From IMG/VR virus record IMGVR_UViG_2563366858_000001: DNA of 11,808 nt; one strand, given 5' to 3'. The stretch comes from a virus. Lineage: Monodnaviria; Loebvirae; Hofneiviricota; Faserviricetes; Tubulavirales; Inoviridae. Positions 530-10,125 of the stretch are shown here, in pieces; the stretch's first letter is position 1, and each line of letters begins with the position of its first letter. The notes beneath the pieces are model-generated. The model ran no database searches. It saw nothing but the letters and a program-made list of their open reading frames with translations, and was not told the origin of the DNA. The position numbers were made by a program, and so were the translations under genes.

Positions 530-557
530 ATTTAACATAATATACATTATGCGCACC
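530..557. other. dif: dif site (XerC/XerD chromosome dimer resolution site); functions as prophage attL
   Basis: The sequence ATTTAACATAATATACATTATGCGCACC is the exact reverse complement of the 28-bp E. coli dif core GGTGCGCATAATGTATATTATGTTAAAT as I recall it (XerD arm, 6-bp central region, XerC arm). Confidence 0.8.
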
Positions 558-697
558 AATGGTAAGGATGGCAGAATCTGGCGGGAATCGTTGACACTGG
601 CCGTCAACTGGCTACTATCGACAGTGATTCAAAATCATCCGTTTCTCCAAACGAATCAGAATCAAATGTCTGTCAGCAGTAAGTGAACGGCCTGACC

Positions 698-946
698 TCA
701 CCAATCAGGCCTGTTCATCCAGTTAGTTGGTAAATCTGTACCTGATACACGAGAATCAAACACCACTTCTTCAGTGCCATCACCATGATGCCGGATAATC
801 TGGTAACCGGATTGCGGGTTCTGGCTCTCAGCTTCATAAGCAGCCCGGAATGCTGGATCTTTGAGAAGCATCACTTTCAGCTCCTGATGTGTCATGAATT
901 TTTCCATGATAAGCCCCGATGAATGCTGCCGCGCCGAATCAGCCAT
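698..946 (-). CDS. Hypothetical small protein (about 65-82 aa depending on start; possible starts at 946, 907 or 895)
   Basis: Six-frame ORF inside the prophage between attL and the secretin gene. No strong Shine-Dalgarno before any candidate ATG. A 7-bp inverted repeat (689-695 / 705-711) straddles its stop codon. Function unknown. Confidence 0.3.
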   Translation of the reverse strand: MADSARQHSSGLIMEKFMTHQELKVMLLKDPAFRAAYEAESQNPQSGYQIIRHHGDGTEEVVFDSRVSGTDLPTNWMNRPDW

Positions 947-1091
947 AACGCTGAAAATGGAAACTGTACGGCTTGGCCAACCCCGGACAGCAACAAAACA
1001 AGTTTTGTCACTGACCGGCGTTATCTTTCAAAACAGACAGTTAACGATTTTTTGTCTGGTGTTTATGCGTGAAATTTCGTGCGTACGAAAT

Positions 1092-1340
1092 TCACCACCA
1101 ATAAACAAACGGACGATGACTGACCGGAAAAGCAATGCCGTCAGCATCATGACCACGCATTACCTGATTGAGAAGCCTTCTGACTTCACGACGCTCAGGC
1201 CTGGTCATCATCATATTGCGATACCAGGACGGCGATTTATCAAACCATCTGGCACAACTGGCAAAATGTGAACCTACACGACGATAAGACTTAAGGCGTC
1301 CACCGGGAAGTCGGTCACGCGCCTTATTTTTTACAGACAT
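1092..1340 (-). CDS. Hypothetical small basic (Arg-rich) protein, 82 aa
   Basis: ATG at 1338-1340 is preceded on the minus strand by GAGGA with a spacing of about 6 nt (a strong RBS). The protein is rich in Arg/Lys, compatible with nucleic-acid binding. It lies immediately downstream of the secretin gene. Confidence 0.4.
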   Translation of the reverse strand: MSVKNKARDRLPGGRLKSYRRVGSHFASCARWFDKSPSWYRNMMMTRPERREVRRLLNQVMRGHDADGIAFPVSHRPFVYWW

Positions 1341-1428
1341 AATAAATCCTCTAAGTAACTGAATACCTAGAAGATGTCGTACTGTTCATACCCCATAAAA
1401 GTTAACGCCATAATAAAAATCCATACAA

Positions 1429-2673
1429 TCAGTTCAGGTTGTCCCGGAACAGTTCACCGCTCCTCGCGGCGCTGCGGGGCGTCGCCCTGCTCCGGTCAAC
1501 CTTTCTGACCTGAAGCATCACCATAATATCAGTCTTGTTGCTTTCACTGGTACGGGAACCGAAGAAGCTCCAGCCGGAACTGGCCTTACTGTCTTTCTGT
1601 TCAGCAAGGCCACCAAGTAAAATAATATCACCATCTGCAAGGCTGACTTCGGTTGTTACATCACGCTTGATAAGGGTTGGCGAGTTATTGACGCCGGTTT
1701 CAGTGGTCACAAAGTTGGAAAGCTGCTGCTGAATCTTGAGATCCATTGTCCGACTTTTGATTGATGGCGTCACGTTAAACAAAACACCGCTGGAACGATA
1801 TTCAACGGATTGCGTTGTCGTATTGTTATTCACCGTAACACTGCCCAGTACTGGCACATCAGAGCCGACTGAAAAAGACGCTGAGGCATTATTTTTTACC
1901 CGCAGTCGTGGCGCACTGACAACAGTAAAACGACTGTCGGTTTTCAGCAGATTGAAAATGGCATCAATGGAGCCGGTTCGAATATTGATAAAATTATCCA
2001 GTCCGGCAGCACCAACTGAAATATTGAATTTATCAGACAGAATTTTAGCCGCTAAAAGAATGCCGGAGCCGTCAGACTGCGAGGTCTGAACCTCAAAAAC
2101 ATAACCAGAAACAACCACTTCATCACTCATCGTATCCAGCGAAGTGACCAGTGTTTTCAGGATGGCGATATCCTCTTTCGTACCATAATAAACCAGAATA
2201 TCACCGGTTCGATTGATGTAGTTGCTTGCCCCTGATGAACCTTTTAGCGAATCGTCAGAAATCACGGCTCCACTGTTATTGAAGGAGCCTGAAACGTAGC
2301 CGCCAAGAATATCAGACAGGTAAGCAACAGAACGGTACTGAGGCGTATAAGTCCATGTATAACGTGGCTTAACCGGCTCTTTCGGCGTATAGGGCGCGAT
2401 AAAATCAACACCCTTTTTCGTCCATATTCGAATGTTCATATTGCCAAGATAACGGGTTACAAATTCCCGTTCATCAATATCAGGTGTTAACCTGAATGTA
2501 ATCATTCGTTCATCATTAACAAGCTGTGGATCTAGCATATACGGGACTTTAAGCACCTCACTGTAAATAAGAGAAATAGCCTCCGGTAGCTTGACTTTAT
2601 TTAATTCAAGCTCTGACCCTGCGAAAGCACATGAAGAAAATAGTAGCGTTAATGCGAGTAAAATCTTTTTCAT
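1429..2673 (-). CDS. Filamentous phage pIV-like outer-membrane secretin (virion export channel), 414 aa
   Basis: N-terminal signal peptide (MKKILLALTLLFSSCAFA) and a C-terminal secretin-type domain rich in Gly/Ser/Thr/Val beta-strand repeats (e.g. VVSAPRLRVKNNASASFSVGSDVPV, ILLGGL). The length is typical of phage pIV rather than T2SS GspD. Its ATG overlaps the stop of the upstream Zot-like gene (TAATG at 2671-2675), with a GGGGA RBS. Confidence 0.85.
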   Translation of the reverse strand: MKKILLALTLLFSSCAFAGSELELNKVKLPEAISLIYSEVLKVPYMLDPQLVNDERMITFRLTPDIDEREFVTRYLGNMNIRIWTKKGVDFIAPYTPKEPVKPRYTWTYTPQYRSVAYLSDILGGYVSGSFNNSGAVISDDSLKGSSGASNYINRTGDILVYYGTKEDIAILKTLVTSLDTMSDEVVVSGYVFEVQTSQSDGSGILLAAKILSDKFNISVGAAGLDNFINIRTGSIDAIFNLLKTDSRFTVVSAPRLRVKNNASASFSVGSDVPVLGSVTVNNNTTTQSVEYRSSGVLFNVTPSIKSRTMDLKIQQQLSNFVTTETGVNNSPTLIKRDVTTEVSLADGDIILLGGLAEQKDSKASSGWSFFGSRTSESNKTDIMVMLQVRKVDRSRATPRSAARSGELFRDNLN

Positions 2674-8819: not shown

Positions 8820-8822
8820 TAT

Positions 8823-8853
8823 AATATTACCCTAGGTTAACTAGGGTAATATT
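8823..8853. repeat. Perfect 13-bp inverted repeat with 5-nt spacer (AATATTACCCTAG gttaa CTAGGGTAATATT)
   Basis: Base pairing verified position by position (8823-8835 against 8841-8853). Lies 3 nt after the stop of the membrane-protein gene and 67 nt before the AT-rich gene. Confidence 0.7.
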
Positions 8854-8920
8854 CAAATACTAAATTTTTACATTTTATCTGACCATCTTTGATCAGTTAA
8901 AACACTGGATTTTAAGTAAA

Positions 8921-10024
8921 ATGAGAAAAAAGATGCCGGACTTGATTACTGATACATTGAAAGTAGTTACTTCTTTTTTTGTGGCATTAGTCCTCAATAA
9001 GTTTTTATCTATATTTAGGAAAAGACAACTTTACTTATCCTGTTGGAACTCCTTGAGTAAAACCTCAATATCTGACAATGCAATAGTAATAAATGCATCA
9101 GTATTTAATAAAGGTAAGGATAAAGAAAAAAATGTAGAAATAAAAGTCCCAAACGGTATGTCTTGTACTGTAATTGCAAGTGATCATGATGCAACTACCG
9201 AAGGTTCTTTTGTGAAGATAGATAGAATATTAGCAAATAAAAAAATATCCATGGTGCTCTTGATTGAAGGAACAAGAGTTCTTGATAAAAGTACCATGCC
9301 TTCCATAAGATCAGAAGATACTGACGGGAAAACATACCTTTCAAAAGACTCAGTGCCACCGAGTGCAGGTTCTTTTATTTTAGGCGGTGCTATTTTTGCT
9401 GCATTTTTCAGTTATATGGTCATCAGTATCCAAACAGAAGACAACCCTCTCGCGGGCCCATTGAAAGCATATAACTACATGATTTATAACAATATGTACA
9501 ATTCTGGACTTTCGATTAATCCTATAGGTAATGGACTGATAACTGAAAATTACAATCTAAGAGCGAATGAATACCCTATTGAAATAATAGATGCCAAGAT
9601 AGAAAAAAATCAAATAATGTTCAAATTTAGAATAATTAATAAAACATCAGAAGCACTGAAAGTTTCAGGCGGATGGAGAATATATAAAAACTTTCAATAT
9701 ATTTCCGAACATGTTGATACATTTGATTATAAAGATGAAAAGAAAAGAGAAGAAGAAGAAATAAGGGTGTATAAGAAATACAATGTGGAATTTGTTAATG
9801 ATAATGGATATCTTATGGAAAAACCGAAAGAAAGGGTTGAAGTTCCTGCAAATTCAGTTGGCTATATTATAATAAACAGAAAATACTCTCCAAGCATTAC
9901 TTATAATGACCTAAACATCGAGTTTAACTTTAGTGGTGGTTCAGGTGAAATATACCAAGAAGCAGATATGCTTTTTACAGCTAAGAATTCTAATATAAGC
10001 AGTACTATATTAGACAAGAAATAA
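8921..10024 (+). CDS. AT-rich hypothetical protein with N-terminal TM segment and a second internal TM segment, 367 aa (accessory/cargo gene)
   Basis: Long ORF with markedly low G+C (spot counts of 60-nt stretches give roughly 20-30% against about 50% in hipA). Asn/Lys/Ile-rich composition. Predicted TM1 around residues 14-31 and TM2 around 149-168. No recognisable catalytic motif. An alternative start at M5 (ATG 8933) is possible. Confidence 0.6.
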   Translation: MRKKMPDLITDTLKVVTSFFVALVLNKFLSIFRKRQLYLSCWNSLSKTSISDNAIVINASVFNKGKDKEKNVEIKVPNGMSCTVIASDHDATTEGSFVKIDRILANKKISMVLLIEGTRVLDKSTMPSIRSEDTDGKTYLSKDSVPPSAGSFILGGAIFAAFFSYMVISIQTEDNPLAGPLKAYNYMIYNNMYNSGLSINPIGNGLITENYNLRANEYPIEIIDAKIEKNQIMFKFRIINKTSEALKVSGGWRIYKNFQYISEHVDTFDYKDEKKREEEEIRVYKKYNVEFVNDNGYLMEKPKERVEVPANSVGYIIINRKYSPSITYNDLNIEFNFSGGSGEIYQEADMLFTAKNSNISSTILDKK

Positions 10025-10057
10025 TTAATTGGTTCGCACAATGACGTTATGCTAAAG

Positions 10058-10094
10058 AGGCCGCTGCGGAGGCCATTTTCGCAGCGGCCTTTTC
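10058..10094 (+). terminator. Rho-independent terminator (possibly bidirectional)
   Basis: Perfect 11-bp stem AGGCCGCTGCG (10058-10068) / CGCAGCGGCCT (10080-10090) with an 11-nt loop, followed by TTTC. It sits 34 nt after the AT-rich gene stop. An A-rich tract precedes the stem, so it could also terminate minus-strand transcripts. Confidence 0.6.
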
Positions 10095-10125
10095 AACATA
10101 ACGAGTCGCACATTATGCGCACCAA
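10095..10125. other. Hybrid dif-like site (prophage attR): XerD-arm-like AACATAA, divergent 9-nt central region, conserved XerC arm
   Basis: AACATAA-cgagtcgca-CATTATGCGCACCAA. The last 15 bp are identical to 546-560 inside the left dif. AACATAA matches part of the XerD arm, and the central region differs (9 nt against TATA in dif). Confidence 0.65.

What the first reader, a model, noticed from the sequence alone, without database searches (positions are those of the whole stretch)
530..10125. Complete Ff-like filamentous prophage integrated at the chromosomal dif site next to hipBA
A full inovirus gene set sits between two dif-type sites: RCR initiator, ssb, pVIII, pIII, pVI, Zot-like pI with Walker A/B, and its own pIV secretin. 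This is the signature of a Xer-exploiting integrative element (IMEX). It resembles the dif-integrated prophage class reported in E. coli K1 (CUS-1) and Yersinia pestis (Ypf), as far as I recall. Its own secretin makes it Ff-like rather than CTX-like, so it should not depend on a host T2SS secretin.
Basis: partly seen in the sequence, partly recalled or inferred. Interest (0 to 1): 0.7.

Follow-up and report, generated by a model that had tools for sequence, protein, structure and literature searches.

The report
CUS-1/Ypf filamentous prophage at dif

Summary
A 9,566-bp insert (window 547-10112) sits between a perfect E. coli dif (530-557) and a hybrid dif-like junction (10091-10123), 78 bp from hipA. 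It encodes a full inovirus gene set: Rep, G5P ssDNA-binding protein, major coat, pIII-like, pVI-like, Zot/pI ATPase and a pIV-type secretin.

Joining the two flanks in silico gives an "empty site" found at 100% identity in other E. coli genomes. K-12 has dif 76 bp from hipA.

The element is the known CUS-1/YpfΦ lineage. It is 99.3% identical over 8.4 kb to the UTI89 prophage and 99.7% over 7.8 kb to the Yersinia pestis prophage. All core proteins are 97-100% identical and full length.

With the junction site it forms a forked ssDNA hairpin like CTXφ attP(+). So export is Ff-like (own secretin), but integration is CTX-like: XerC-driven, probably irreversible. This has been proposed in print for CUS-1 and YpfΦ.

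The copy here is solitary; tandem dimers occur in other genomes.

The only unusual feature is the low-GC 367-aa gene beside attP. It is 29% identical to its UTI89 counterpart and lies in a hypervariable cargo slot that holds SIR2-, TIR- and Fic-domain genes in relatives.

Novelty: already known. Interest: low.

The parts
1..480 (+). 3' part of a chromosomal alpha/beta hydrolase (acetylxylan esterase-like) gene; host left flank
   Evidence: Pfam AXE1 8e-5. Annotated as acetylxylan esterase or alpha/beta hydrolase in empty-site genomes.
530..557 (-). Perfect chromosomal dif regenerated by integration: XerD arm 530-540, central region 541-546, XerC arm 547-557. The XerC arm is contributed by the phage.
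   Evidence: Exact 28/28 match, 0 of 200 shuffles. Same sequence as K-12 dif.
547..10112 (-). One prophage unit, 9,566 bp. The viral (+) strand is inferred to be the window's minus strand (the sense strand of the Rep-to-secretin genes).
   Evidence: Direct-repeat spacing of 9,566 bp. Tandem-dimer period of 9,567 bp in strain AJ1. Phage-phage junctions in Y. pestis and AJ1 join site B directly to the sequence at window 558 onward.
698..946 (-). Small ORF of unknown function near the dif-proximal end (matched by position to the YPO2280a/YPO2281 pair)
   Evidence: phrog_6642, function unknown. 97.6% identical in Y. pestis and 100% in UTI89. PMC4266046.
1092..1340 (-). Small basic ORF (82 aa) of unknown function
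   Evidence: 100% identical in Y. pestis and UTI89. No family hit even at E=10.
1429..2673 (-). pIV-type secretin (virion export channel), 414 aa
   Evidence: PF00263 1.3e-24. phrog_1012 'protein IV of M13' 8e-138. PDB f1 pIV 7ofh 1e-10 and GspD 3e-16. 100% identical to the Y. pestis copy.
2673..3698 (-). pI/Zot assembly ATPase, 341 aa
   Evidence: PF05707 1.9e-26. Walker A GIPGSGKS and Walker B LIVIDEAW in the translation.
3702..3989 (-). pVI-like minor coat protein (DUF2523)
   Evidence: PF10734 1e-20. phrog_974 'minor head protein' 7e-30.
4002..5564 (-). pIII-like adsorption protein (called puvA in CUS-1). The start codon is uncertain: the ORF is open up to 5714.
   Evidence: phrog_3942 4.5e-253. 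Annotated as 520 aa in RefSeq. Hydrophobic C-terminal stretch in the translation, read as a membrane anchor. puvA described as a virion receptor-binding protein in PMC4266046.
5745..5767 (-). Terminator-like hairpin just downstream of the major coat gene
   Evidence: 10-pair stem followed by a T tract. Consensus match only.
5779..6012 (-). pVIII-like major coat protein, 77 aa, with signal peptide, acidic N-terminus, hydrophobic core and basic C-terminus
   Evidence: Phage_Coat_B 0.0016, below the Pfam cut-off. phrog_2186 'virion structural protein' 5.9e-29. Sequence features visible.
6047..6298 (-). 83-aa membrane protein at the position of the Ff pVII/pIX genes
   Evidence: phrog_3679. Annotated as 'membrane protein'. 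The role is inferred from position only.
6301..6618 (-). G5P-type ssDNA-binding protein
   Evidence: PF17426 1.2e-52.
6630..7682 (-). Rolling-circle replication initiator (gpII/X family)
   Evidence: PF05144 1.2e-73 and PF05155 3.6e-34. 58% identical to phage I2-2 gene II. 100% identical to the Y. pestis copy.
7854..8300 (+). Divergently transcribed HTH regulator, an RstR-like putative repressor
   Evidence: HTH_3 1.6e-9 and Phage_CI_repr 4e-4. phrog_3557 4e-74. PMC4266046 describes YPO2273, at the matching position in YpfΦ, as homologous to the CTXφ repressor RstR.
8397..8819 (+). 140-aa multi-pass membrane protein of unknown function (probably CUS-1 'orf1a'; name inferred from position)
   Evidence: phrog_4174. 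96% identical in UTI89 and absent from Y. pestis.
8921..10024 (+). Low-GC (29-34%) 367-aa cargo gene of unknown function in the hypervariable slot beside attP. The predicted fold is TM helix, beta-sandwich, TM helix, beta-sandwich.
10031..10057 (+). Inverted dif-like site A: GGTTCGCACAA-TGACG-TTATGCTAAAG, with a 5-nt spacer. It forms one side of the attP(+) hairpin.
   Evidence: Read from the sequence. Conserved in 23 IMG/VR contigs and in Yersinia, Brenneria and Photorhabdus loci.
10059..10089 (.). GC-rich stem-loop at the tip of the attP hairpin. It may also act as a terminator for the cargo gene.
   Evidence: Inverted repeat I2. DNA fold of -30 kcal/mol. Three compensatory pairs in the stem.
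10091..10123 (-). Hybrid junction (site B): phage XerD-like arm 10091-10101, phage 11-nt spacer 10102-10112, chromosomal XerC arm 10113-10123
   Evidence: The flank at 10124-10201 matches the K-12 sequence between dif and hipA.
10202..11524 (-). hipA (host right flank)
   Evidence: HipA_C 3.8e-52 and Couple_hipA 2.7e-27. RefSeq annotation.
11524..11790 (-). hipB
   Evidence: HTH_3 3.8e-15. RefSeq annotation.

Best explanation
The insert is a solitary, apparently intact copy of the CUS-1/YpfΦ lineage of filamentous phage, an integrative mobile element that exploits Xer recombination (IMEX).

Proposed integration route, inferred from the sequence and from published work on CTXφ:
1. The viral (+) single strand is taken to be the window's minus strand.
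2. It folds at attP so that site B (GGTGCGCATAA-TGTGCGACTCG-TTATGTTGAAA) pairs with the inverted site A, 33 nt away.
3. This builds a forked hairpin that mimics a dif duplex, with XerC and XerD arms separated by a bulged centre.
4. Host XerC exchanges one strand with chromosomal dif. The TGT shared by the two central regions stabilises the exchange.
5. Replication converts the intermediate into a prophage.

The product is what the window shows. On the hipA side there is the chromosomal XerC arm, then the phage 11-nt spacer and XerD arm, the loop, and site A. On the far side there is a regenerated perfect dif, which keeps chromosome dimer resolution working.

In double-stranded form the arms of the hybrid site are 11 bp apart, so Xer excision is not expected. 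New virions would come from rolling-circle replication by the gpII-type Rep, most easily across tandem copies.

Assembly and export use the phage's own Zot/pI ATPase and pIV secretin, so no host secretin should be needed.

Shown here: gene content, boundaries, empty site, identity to CUS-1/Ypf, and conservation and pairing of the inverted sites. Inferred: XerC dependence, irreversibility, the route of virion production, and independence from a host secretin.
For: - Family assignments of the core genes.
- Perfect dif plus a hybrid junction, and a 9,566-bp direct-repeat spacing.
- An empty-site allele at 100% identity over 801 bp, in one piece, in at least 11 genomes; 230 genomes cover at least 80% of it. 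K-12 dif lies 76 bp from hipA.
- 99.3% nt identity to the UTI89 prophage over 8,358 bp and 99.68% to Y. pestis over 7,839 bp.
- All core proteins are full length and 97-100% identical to the Y. pestis copies, and YpfΦ is reported to form infectious virions (PMC4266046).
- Phage-phage junctions in Y. pestis and in the AJ1 tandem dimer reproduce the predicted circular junction.
- The hairpin folds at -30 kcal/mol with DNA parameters.
- On 14 distinct attP sequences, 89% of cells are paired against 31-46% when partners are slid. Four pairs show compensatory changes, one of them in the XerD arm.
- The spacers of 11 and 5 nt parallel the 12 and 7 nt of CTXφ attP1 and attP2 (PMC3089051).
- The literature lists CUS-1φ and YpfΦ as CTX-type IMEXs and notes inverted XerC/XerD sites in the packaged Ypf genome (PMC4246890, PMC4266046, PMC3442271, PMC3089051).
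- No integrase family and no XafT/DUF3653 was found among the ORFs scanned, which were the named ORFs of 77 aa or more.
Against: - Nothing here tests XerC dependence, ssDNA as the substrate, or virion production.
- The covariation is thin. All four compensatory pairs come from two related sequences (Brenneria and L027), so they may represent one or two events. Site A was also partly fixed by the search pattern used to collect sequences.
- Two mismatches in the paired XerD arms are invariant in all 14 sequences, and their role is unknown.
- The junction architecture alone would also fit a double-strand XerC or XerD pathway.
- The (+)-strand origin was not located. The only Ff-like nick-site match is at chance level.
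- This copy is solitary, which in CTXφ prevents virion production.
- The Ypf review reports possible excision by homologous recombination and preferential insertion between tandem copies. [quoted passage not shown]
Confidence: 0.85

Rival explanations
1. The phage integrates as double-stranded replicative form by a VGJφ-type (XerC-only, reversible) or TLCφ-type (XerD-first) pathway that uses site B alone. On this reading the inverted site A plus GC stem-loop is only a terminator for the cargo gene.
For: The two junctions (chromosomal XerC arm joined to phage centre and XerD side; phage XerC arm joined to chromosomal centre and XerD arm) are what any of the three IMEX routes would leave. The GC stem followed by TTTT looks like an intrinsic terminator. 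The Ypf review mentions extrachromosomal forms and apparent copy-number dynamics (PMC4266046).
Against: As duplex DNA, site B has its XerC and XerD arms 11 bp apart, and there is no XerD-like arm at 6-7 bp spacing. No XafT/DUF3653 was detected even at E=10. Site A is itself a recognisable dif-like site, not just a stem, and it is conserved across genera. One compensatory change falls inside the XerD arms, and the XerC arms pair perfectly in Brenneria and L018. The literature classes CUS-1 and Ypf as CTX-type (PMC4246890, PMC3089051).
Confidence: 0.08
2. The prophage is intact in sequence but functionally locked in. As a single copy it can neither be excised by Xer nor be copied origin-to-origin by rolling-circle replication, so in this strain it acts as a fixed genomic island that expresses only its regulator and cargo genes.
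For: There is a single copy with host DNA on both sides. The hybrid site has an 11-bp spacer. CTX-type integration is described as irreversible, with phage production depending on rolling-circle replication (PMC4246890). Tandem copies are the predominant form in Y. pestis (PMC4266046), and a tandem dimer exists in E. coli AJ1.
Against: All core ORFs are full length and 97-100% identical to those of virion-producing YpfΦ, which argues for recent activity. UTI89 carries one copy in its assembly, and from my own recollection of Gonzalez et al. 2002 (paper not held) its O18:K1:H7 lineage was reported to release ssDNA particles. Assemblies can also collapse tandem repeats.
Confidence: 0.3
3. The block is not a phage but a chromosomal secretion or pilus-type gene cluster that happens to lie near dif.
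For: RefSeq annotates the secretin as 'type II secretion system protein GspD' and several genes as hypothetical.
Against: Rep, G5P, the major coat, the pVI-like protein and Zot are phage-specific families arranged in the canonical inovirus order. The secretin is 414 aa, against 650 aa for the best-matching solved GspD chain. It falls far below the GspD equivalog cut-off, at 104 against 351 bits. The block is absent from 97% of E. coli genomes, and precise empty sites exist.
Confidence: 0.01

Closest known systems
CUS-1 prophage of E. coli O18:K1:H7 (Gonzalez et al. 2002; represented here by UTI89, NC_007946)
   Same: Same insertion point (dif beside hipA) and same gene order. Window 456-8813 is 99.3% nt identical and 10029-11808 is 99.2% identical. 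Core proteins are 97-100% identical. The attP module is the same apart from small differences in the loop and spacer.
   Different: Window 8814-10028 does not align at the DNA level. The 367-aa cargo protein is only 29% identical to the 369-aa UTI89 protein. The allele seen here is the one carried by FDAARGOS_1261, ESBLEC_MG32 and AJ1.
YpfΦ of Yersinia pestis (Derbise et al. 2007; Derbise & Carniel 2014, PMC4266046)
   Same: 99.68% nt identity over window 543-8380. Rep, ssb, secretin, pVI, the 83-aa protein and the HTH regulator are 100% identical. Both integrate at dif, regenerate an intact dif and carry inverted XerC/XerD sites. The attP region is 93% identical.
   Different: The segment between the HTH gene and attP (window 8381-10017) is replaced in Ypf by unrelated ORFs (YPO2271/2272). 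Ypf is 8.7 kb against 9.57 kb here. Ypf is tandem in the 1.ORI branch, whereas this copy is solitary. The chromosomal XerC arm differs (TTATGTGCACC in Y. pestis).
CTXφ of Vibrio cholerae (CTX-type IMEX)
   Same: Both have two inverted dif-like sites with unequal spacers (12 and 7 nt in CTXφ; 11 and 5 nt here) that can fold into a forked hairpin on the (+) strand. Both have a divergent RstR-like repressor next to Rep, a Zot-family assembly ATPase, and no integrase (PMC3089051, PMC4246890).
   Different: This phage encodes its own secretin. From my own knowledge, CTXφ instead uses the host EpsD secretin. There is no ctxAB and no detectable nucleotide similarity. The Rep here belongs to the gpII/Phage_CRI family and is closest to phage I2-2.
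Ff (M13/f1/fd) and I2-2/IKe filamentous coliphages
   Same: Gene order is II-V-(VII/IX)-VIII-III-VI-I-IV, and the secretin is phage-encoded. Matches include phrog_1012 'protein IV of M13' and PDB 7ofh. Rep is 58% identical to I2-2 gene II. A terminator-like hairpin follows the major coat gene.
   Different: The Ff phages are episomal and do not integrate (my own knowledge). There is no nucleotide similarity. The pIII-like protein has no Pfam match to Ff coat protein A. This element also has a repressor, cargo genes and an attP module.
Phage hypervariable regions (pHVRs) of dif-integrating Vibrio inoviruses (PMC12715192)
   Same: Both have a short, highly variable accessory-gene slot close to the integration module. 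In relatives it is populated by genes with defence-type domains: SIR2, TIR and Fic.
   Different: In Vibrio CTX-I phages the slot lies between zot and xafT. Here it lies between the regulator/140-aa membrane gene and attP, and no xafT is present. I found no description of this slot for the enterobacterial CUS-1/Ypf lineage in the papers I could search.

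Membership tests
Filamentous phage (Inoviridae-type gene set) | Rolling-circle Rep of the gpII family | tested here: met
   PF05144 1.2e-73 and PF05155 3.6e-34.
Filamentous phage (Inoviridae-type gene set) | ssDNA-binding protein (gpV type) | tested here: met
   PF17426 1.2e-52.
Filamentous phage (Inoviridae-type gene set) | Small major coat protein with signal peptide and basic C-terminus | tested here: met
   phrog_2186 5.9e-29. The Pfam Phage_Coat_B match is only 0.0016, below the cut-off. The sequence features are visible.
Filamentous phage (Inoviridae-type gene set) | Zot/pI morphogenesis ATPase with Walker A and B motifs | tested here: met
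   PF05707 1.9e-26. GIPGSGKS and LIVIDEAW in the translation.
Filamentous phage (Inoviridae-type gene set) | Receptor-binding minor coat protein (pIII) | tested here: inconclusive
   No Pfam or NCBIfam hit. Only phrog_3942, function unknown. Position, the hydrophobic C-terminal stretch and the published puvA assignment (PMC4266046) support the role.
Filamentous phage (Inoviridae-type gene set) | Production of filamentous ssDNA virions | not testable with these tools
   Reported for YpfΦ (PMC4266046), whose core proteins are 97-100% identical.
CUS-1/YpfΦ lineage | Near-identity over the ~7-8 kb regulation, replication and assembly block | tested here: met
   99.3% to UTI89 and 99.68% to Y. pestis.
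CUS-1/YpfΦ lineage | Integration at chromosomal dif with regeneration of an intact dif | tested here: met
CUS-1/YpfΦ lineage | CUS-1-specific accessory ORFs (orf1/orf1a) next to attP | tested here: inconclusive
   The 140-aa ORF is 96% identical to the UTI89 copy. The 367-aa ORF is a 29%-identical homologue of the UTI89 ORF, so it is the same gene family but a very divergent allele.
CTX-type IMEX (ssDNA hairpin attP) | Two dif-like sites in inverted orientation, close together, with unequal spacers | tested here: met
   Site A at 10031-10057 (5-nt spacer) and site B at 10091-10123 (11-nt spacer).
CTX-type IMEX (ssDNA hairpin attP) | The sites pair into a forked hairpin that presents XerC and XerD arms | tested here: met
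   In silico only. Fold energy of -30 kcal/mol. 89% of cells paired against 31-46% when slid, with 4 compensatory pairs.
CTX-type IMEX (ssDNA hairpin attP) | Central-region identity with dif restricted to the XerC side | tested here: met
   Phage TGTGCG... against dif TGTATA; the first three bases are shared.
CTX-type IMEX (ssDNA hairpin attP) | XerC-catalysed single strand exchange, irreversible integration, virions made by rolling-circle replication from tandem copies | not testable with these tools
   Literature classification only (PMC4246890). A tandem dimer was seen in AJ1.
CTX-type IMEX (ssDNA hairpin attP) | No element-encoded integrase | tested here: met
   No recombinase family among the ORFs scanned, which were the named ORFs of 77 aa or more.
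VGJφ-type IMEX | Duplex attP with XerC and XerD arms at dif-like spacing (6-7 bp) | tested here: not met
   The arms are 11 bp apart in duplex form, and there is no XerD-like arm at 6-7 bp.
TLCφ-type IMEX | Xer activation factor XafT (DUF3653) | tested here: not met
   No DUF3653 hit for any small ORF, even at E=10.
Ff group (M13/f1/fd) | Close sequence relationship and an F-pilus-binding pIII | tested here: not met
   No megablast match to any phage record. No Ff phage appears among the tblastn hits for the secretin or Rep. No coat protein A domain. Only the architecture, with its own pIV, is shared.

The most novel reading that the evidence does not exclude
The low-GC 367-aa gene (8921-10024) encodes a protein with two TM helices and two beta-sandwich domains. 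It may be a previously uncharacterised protective factor carried by the phage, for superinfection exclusion or anti-phage defence.

It sits in a cargo slot immediately upstream of the attP hairpin. In the enterobacterial CUS-1/Ypf lineage this slot is a hypervariable defence hotspot, analogous to Vibrio pHVRs but apparently not yet described for this lineage. Alleles of the gene have diverged to 29% identity inside otherwise 99%-identical phages. In relatives the same slot holds SIR2 (PDC-S25), CAP12/Pycsar-type TIR (PDC-S35), Fic/DOC (PDC-S23), DUF4427 and DUF7014 genes.
Probability: 0.3. Interest if true: 0.45.

Novelty: already known. Interest (0 to 1): 0.2.

Why it matters
It matters little as a discovery. 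CUS-1 (2002) and YpfΦ (2007) are published, their dif integration and CTX-like inverted attP sites have been noted, and near-identical copies sit in about 2% of complete E. coli genomes.

The practical value is in annotation. RefSeq labels the genes 'GspD', 'zonular occludens toxin' and 'hypothetical' without marking a prophage. The INPHARED phage collection holds no record of this lineage, so similarity-based prophage callers may miss it.

The exact boundaries, the three-site attP anatomy and the empty-site sequence given here allow clean typing of the element.

The side observation of a hypervariable cargo slot beside attP, with defence-type genes in relatives, is the only lead that might yield something new.

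Tried and rejected
1. Megablast of 530-10125 against the phage collection gave no match. The lineage is simply not deposited as a phage record. Protein-level searches found only I2-2 (Rep, 58%) and uncultured gut inoviruses (secretin 47-49%, pI 40-46%).

2. A search for an Ff-type nick site gave one 3-mismatch hit inside rep on the wrong strand, at chance level (6 of 200 shuffles). The origin remains unlocated.

3. A search for XafT/DUF3653 or any integrase found nothing. This argues against a TLC-type or integrase-mediated route.

4. Rfam at gathering thresholds found no RNA family in the window.

6. My initial recollection that puvA was the low-GC gene was wrong. The Ypf review assigns puvA to the pIII-like virion protein.

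7. The Gonzalez 2002 paper itself is not held in the library, so statements about CUS-1 rest on later reviews.

8. The promoter scan found no more sites than shuffled sequence (26 against 29.3) and was not used.

Full report
**What is in the window**

The window is E. coli terminus-region DNA. Six-frame ORF listing and Pfam/PHROG scans show a minus-strand operon:
- Rep: 6630-7682; Phage_CRI 1e-73 plus G2P_X_C.
- G5P ssDNA-binding protein: 6301-6618; 1e-52.
- An 83-aa membrane protein: 6047-6298.
- A 77-aa major coat protein: 5779-6012; phrog_2186 6e-29. The Pfam Coat_B match is only 0.0016, below the cut-off.
- A pIII-like protein: 4002-5564, with the ORF open up to 5714; phrog_3942.
- A DUF2523 pVI-like protein: 3702-3989.
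- A Zot/pI ATPase: 2673-3698; 2e-26; Walker A GIPGSGKS and Walker B LIVIDEAW.
- A 414-aa secretin: 1429-2673; PF00263 1e-24; phrog_1012 'protein IV of M13' 8e-138; PDB f1 pIV 7ofh 1e-10.

Transcribed divergently on the plus strand are an HTH regulator (7854-8300), a 140-aa membrane protein (8397-8819) and a low-GC 367-aa ORF (8921-10024; GC 29-34% against 47-48% in the flanks).

The flanks are a truncated alpha/beta hydrolase gene (1-480) on one side and hipA/hipB (10202-11790) on the other.

**The sites**

The exact 28-nt E. coli dif lies at 530-557 on the minus strand; none of 200 shuffles gave a match.

At the other end, 10113-10123 repeats the XerC arm TTATGCGCACC exactly. A 16-nt identical direct repeat sits at 544 and 10110, 9,566 bp apart. 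Inward from that arm the sequence departs from dif: an 11-nt spacer (10102-10112) precedes a good XerD-like arm (10091-10101, TTTCAACATAA). This is therefore a hybrid junction, not a second dif.

It is separated from the junction site by a GC-rich stem-loop at 10059-10089 (inverted repeat I2).

**Insertion and empty site**

In K-12, dif lies 76 bp beyond the hipA stop, and the sequence between them matches window 10124-10201.

I joined window 157-557 to 10124-10523 in silico and searched complete E. coli genomes. The 801-bp junction occurs in one piece at 100% identity in at least 11 genomes, and 230 genomes cover at least 80% of it.

The phage core (1429-8300) is present in only 139 of 5,426 genomes, and 99 of these hold at least 80% of it.

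The block is a precise insertion at dif.

**Identity**

- UTI89, an O18:K1:H7 strain, carries the same element in the same place. Window 456-8813 is 99.3% identical and 10029-11808 is 99.2% identical.
- A genome-collection scan with Rep found a 100%-identical Rep in Yersinia pestis. Window 543-8380 aligns to that locus at 99.68% over 7,839 bp, in tandem copies.
- Every core protein is full length and 97-100% identical to the Y. pestis copy. The secretin matches at 414 of 414 residues.
- This agrees with the published description of YpfΦ: 8.7 kb; replication, morphogenesis and secretion modules; 99% identical to CUS-1 over 7.1 kb; integrated at dif with an intact dif regenerated; differing from CUS-1 in the ORFs next to one attachment end (PMC4266046).

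The window therefore holds a member of the CUS-1/YpfΦ lineage. The core at 1429-8300 is 100% identical to that of strain FDAARGOS_1261.

**How it most likely integrates**

The phage-phage junctions in the Y. pestis tandem array and in an E. coli tandem dimer (strain AJ1, period 9,567 bp) read '...site A, stem-loop, site B, XerC arm, AATGGTAAGGATGG...'. That is site B joined directly to the sequence at window 558 onward. This fixes the unit as 547-10112 and gives the true attP.

On the inferred viral strand (the window's minus strand, the sense strand of the Rep-to-secretin genes), this region folds with DNA parameters into a single long hairpin of -30 kcal/mol. In it:
- the two XerC-like arms pair (9 Watson-Crick pairs of 11, plus a G·T at one of the two mismatched positions on the viral strand);
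- the centre has a 7-nt bulge;
- the two XerD-like arms pair (8 of 11, plus one G·T);
- the GC stem caps the tip.

The site A motif recovered 23 IMG/VR contigs. Adding the Yersinia, Brenneria and Photorhabdus loci gave 14 distinct attP sequences for alignment. On these:
- 89% of cells are paired, against 31-46% when partners are slid by 1-3 columns.
- Four pairs show compensatory double changes, one within the XerD arms and three in the tip stem.
- The XerC arms become perfectly complementary in Brenneria and L018.

This support is modest. The compensatory changes come from two related sequences, and my search pattern partly fixed site A.

The unequal spacers (11 and 5 nt) parallel CTXφ attP1 and attP2 (12 and 7 nt; PMC3089051). 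The phage centre shares only the XerC-proximal TGT with dif.

The window's layout is exactly what a CTX-type single-strand XerC exchange followed by replication would leave. From the hipA side it reads: chromosomal XerC arm, phage spacer, XerD arm, loop, site A, phage genome, phage XerC arm, chromosomal centre, XerD arm.

The literature already classes CUS-1φ and YpfΦ as CTX-type IMEXs (PMC4246890; PMC3442271). It also notes the inverted XerC/XerD sites in the packaged Ypf genome.

The alternatives fit less well:
- As duplex DNA, site B has its arms 11 bp apart, which is unlike a VGJ-type attP.
- No XafT/DUF3653 and no integrase was found.

XerC dependence, irreversibility and the route of virion production are inferred, not shown.

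**Export**

However, 'Ff-like' describes architecture only:
- No phage record matches at the nucleotide level.
- Rep is 58% identical to phage I2-2 gene II.
- The nearest secretin and pI sequences in the phage collection belong to uncultured gut inoviruses, at 40-49%.
- The pIII-like protein has no Ff coat protein A domain.

Independence from a host secretin is a reasonable inference but was not tested.

**State of this copy**

All ORFs are intact, but the copy is solitary. Virion production in the CTX-type model depends on rolling-circle replication, which in CTXφ runs across tandem elements (the tandem detail is from my own knowledge). Tandem copies are the predominant form in Y. pestis and occur in E. 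coli AJ1. I therefore give about 0.3 to the possibility that this particular copy is locked in and non-productive.

**The one unusual feature**

Window 8814-10028 does not align to UTI89 at all, although the flanks are 99% identical. The 367-aa protein is only 29% identical to the 369-aa UTI89 protein.

I extracted the ORF that ends just upstream of site A in every locus sharing the attP module (its stop is within 10 nt of site A in most loci; the farthest is 198 nt away). These ORFs comprise at least 14 unrelated genes. They include:
- a SIR2_2 protein (PADLOC PDC-S25, 2e-82);
- CAP12/Pycsar-type TIR proteins (PDC-S35);
- a Fic/DOC protein (PDC-S23);
- DUF4427 and DUF7014 proteins;
- several small membrane proteins.

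This resembles the hypervariable regions (pHVRs) described for dif-integrating Vibrio inoviruses (PMC12715192). There the slot lies between zot and xafT, so the position differs here.

The window's own cargo protein has no family hit and only 21 homologue clusters. Its predicted fold is TM helix, beta-sandwich, TM helix, beta-sandwich (pLDDT 80.6), and only generic structural neighbours were found. Its function is unknown. A protective role is a guess from position.

**Verdict**

The element is already known, so interest is low (0.2). The cargo slot is the only lead that might go beyond the literature.

Noticed in passing
window 8814-10028; L002 11277-12386: Inside phages that are about 99% identical on both sides, the gene next to attP has diverged to 29% amino-acid identity (367 aa here, 369 aa in UTI89). 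It does not align at the DNA level. This points to cassette replacement or strong diversifying selection.
   Followed up: partly
Loci L008-L035 (IMG/VR and genome contigs), the ORF ending just upstream of the site A motif: The slot directly upstream of the conserved attP hairpin holds at least 14 unrelated genes across relatives. They include SIR2 (PDC-S25), CAP12/Pycsar TIR (PDC-S35), Fic/DOC (PDC-S23), DUF4427 and DUF7014 genes and small membrane proteins. This looks like a defence/moron hotspot, comparable to Vibrio pHVRs.
   Followed up: partly
L012 11090-13880 (E. coli ESBLEC_MG32): Between the CUS-1-type prophage and hipA lies a second, decayed element. It consists of an ISNCY transposase fragment, a SIR2 gene whose stop abuts a second copy of site A plus the stem-loop, and no XerC arm. 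It appears to be an older IMEX remnant that kept only its cargo and attP, stacked at dif.
   Followed up: partly
window 558-578 versus 10124-10144; L005 chromosomal junction: The roughly 20 nt of phage DNA beyond the XerC arm (AATGGTAAGGATGGCAGAATC) resemble the chromosomal sequence beyond dif. The 35-nt repeat as a whole is 77% identical to the E. coli copy, and by eye the resemblance to Y. pestis (AAGGTAACGATAGGCGGAATC) is closer. This may be a trace of past capture of a host dif flank.
   Followed up: no
window 10052/10096 and 10054/10094 (alignment A1 columns 24/69 and 26/67): Two mismatched positions (C·A and A·C) in the paired XerD-like arms of the hairpin are invariant in all 14 distinct attP sequences, whereas a neighbouring pair covaries. 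The mismatches may be functional.
   Followed up: no
L004 (E. coli AJ1, NZ_OZ547217.1 4577000-4597000): A perfect head-to-tail dimer of the prophage (period 9,567 bp) sits at dif next to hipA. The internal junction carries a XerC arm variant, TTATGCGAACC, that pairs better with site A.
   Followed up: partly
window 7893-8027 (query positions 6465-6599): A 135-bp stretch of the HTH regulator gene matches about 40-kb E. coli plasmids at 93-97% identity (22 plasmid places). A related repressor gene is therefore shared with another class of mobile element.
   Followed up: no
L009 (MAG labelled Candidatus Nanosynbacter) and L007 (MAG labelled Aerococcus): Contigs binned to a Saccharibacteria MAG and an Aerococcus MAG carry a Rep 86% and 96% identical to the window's. 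L009 also carries E. coli-like hipA (96% nt). These are almost certainly mis-binned Enterobacterales DNA.
   Followed up: no
window 1-529 versus L003 (K-12) and L001: The chromosomal side of dif away from hipA varies between strains. This window has an alpha/beta hydrolase gene, K-12 has ydeT/yneL, and FDAARGOS_1261 has rearranged pseudogene fragments. FDAARGOS_1261 also lacks window 859-1330 inside the prophage.
   Followed up: partly
window 5745-5767 (minus strand): A 10-bp-stem terminator-like hairpin lies immediately after the major coat gene. From my own knowledge, this is the position of the strong terminator after gene VIII in Ff phages.
   Followed up: no
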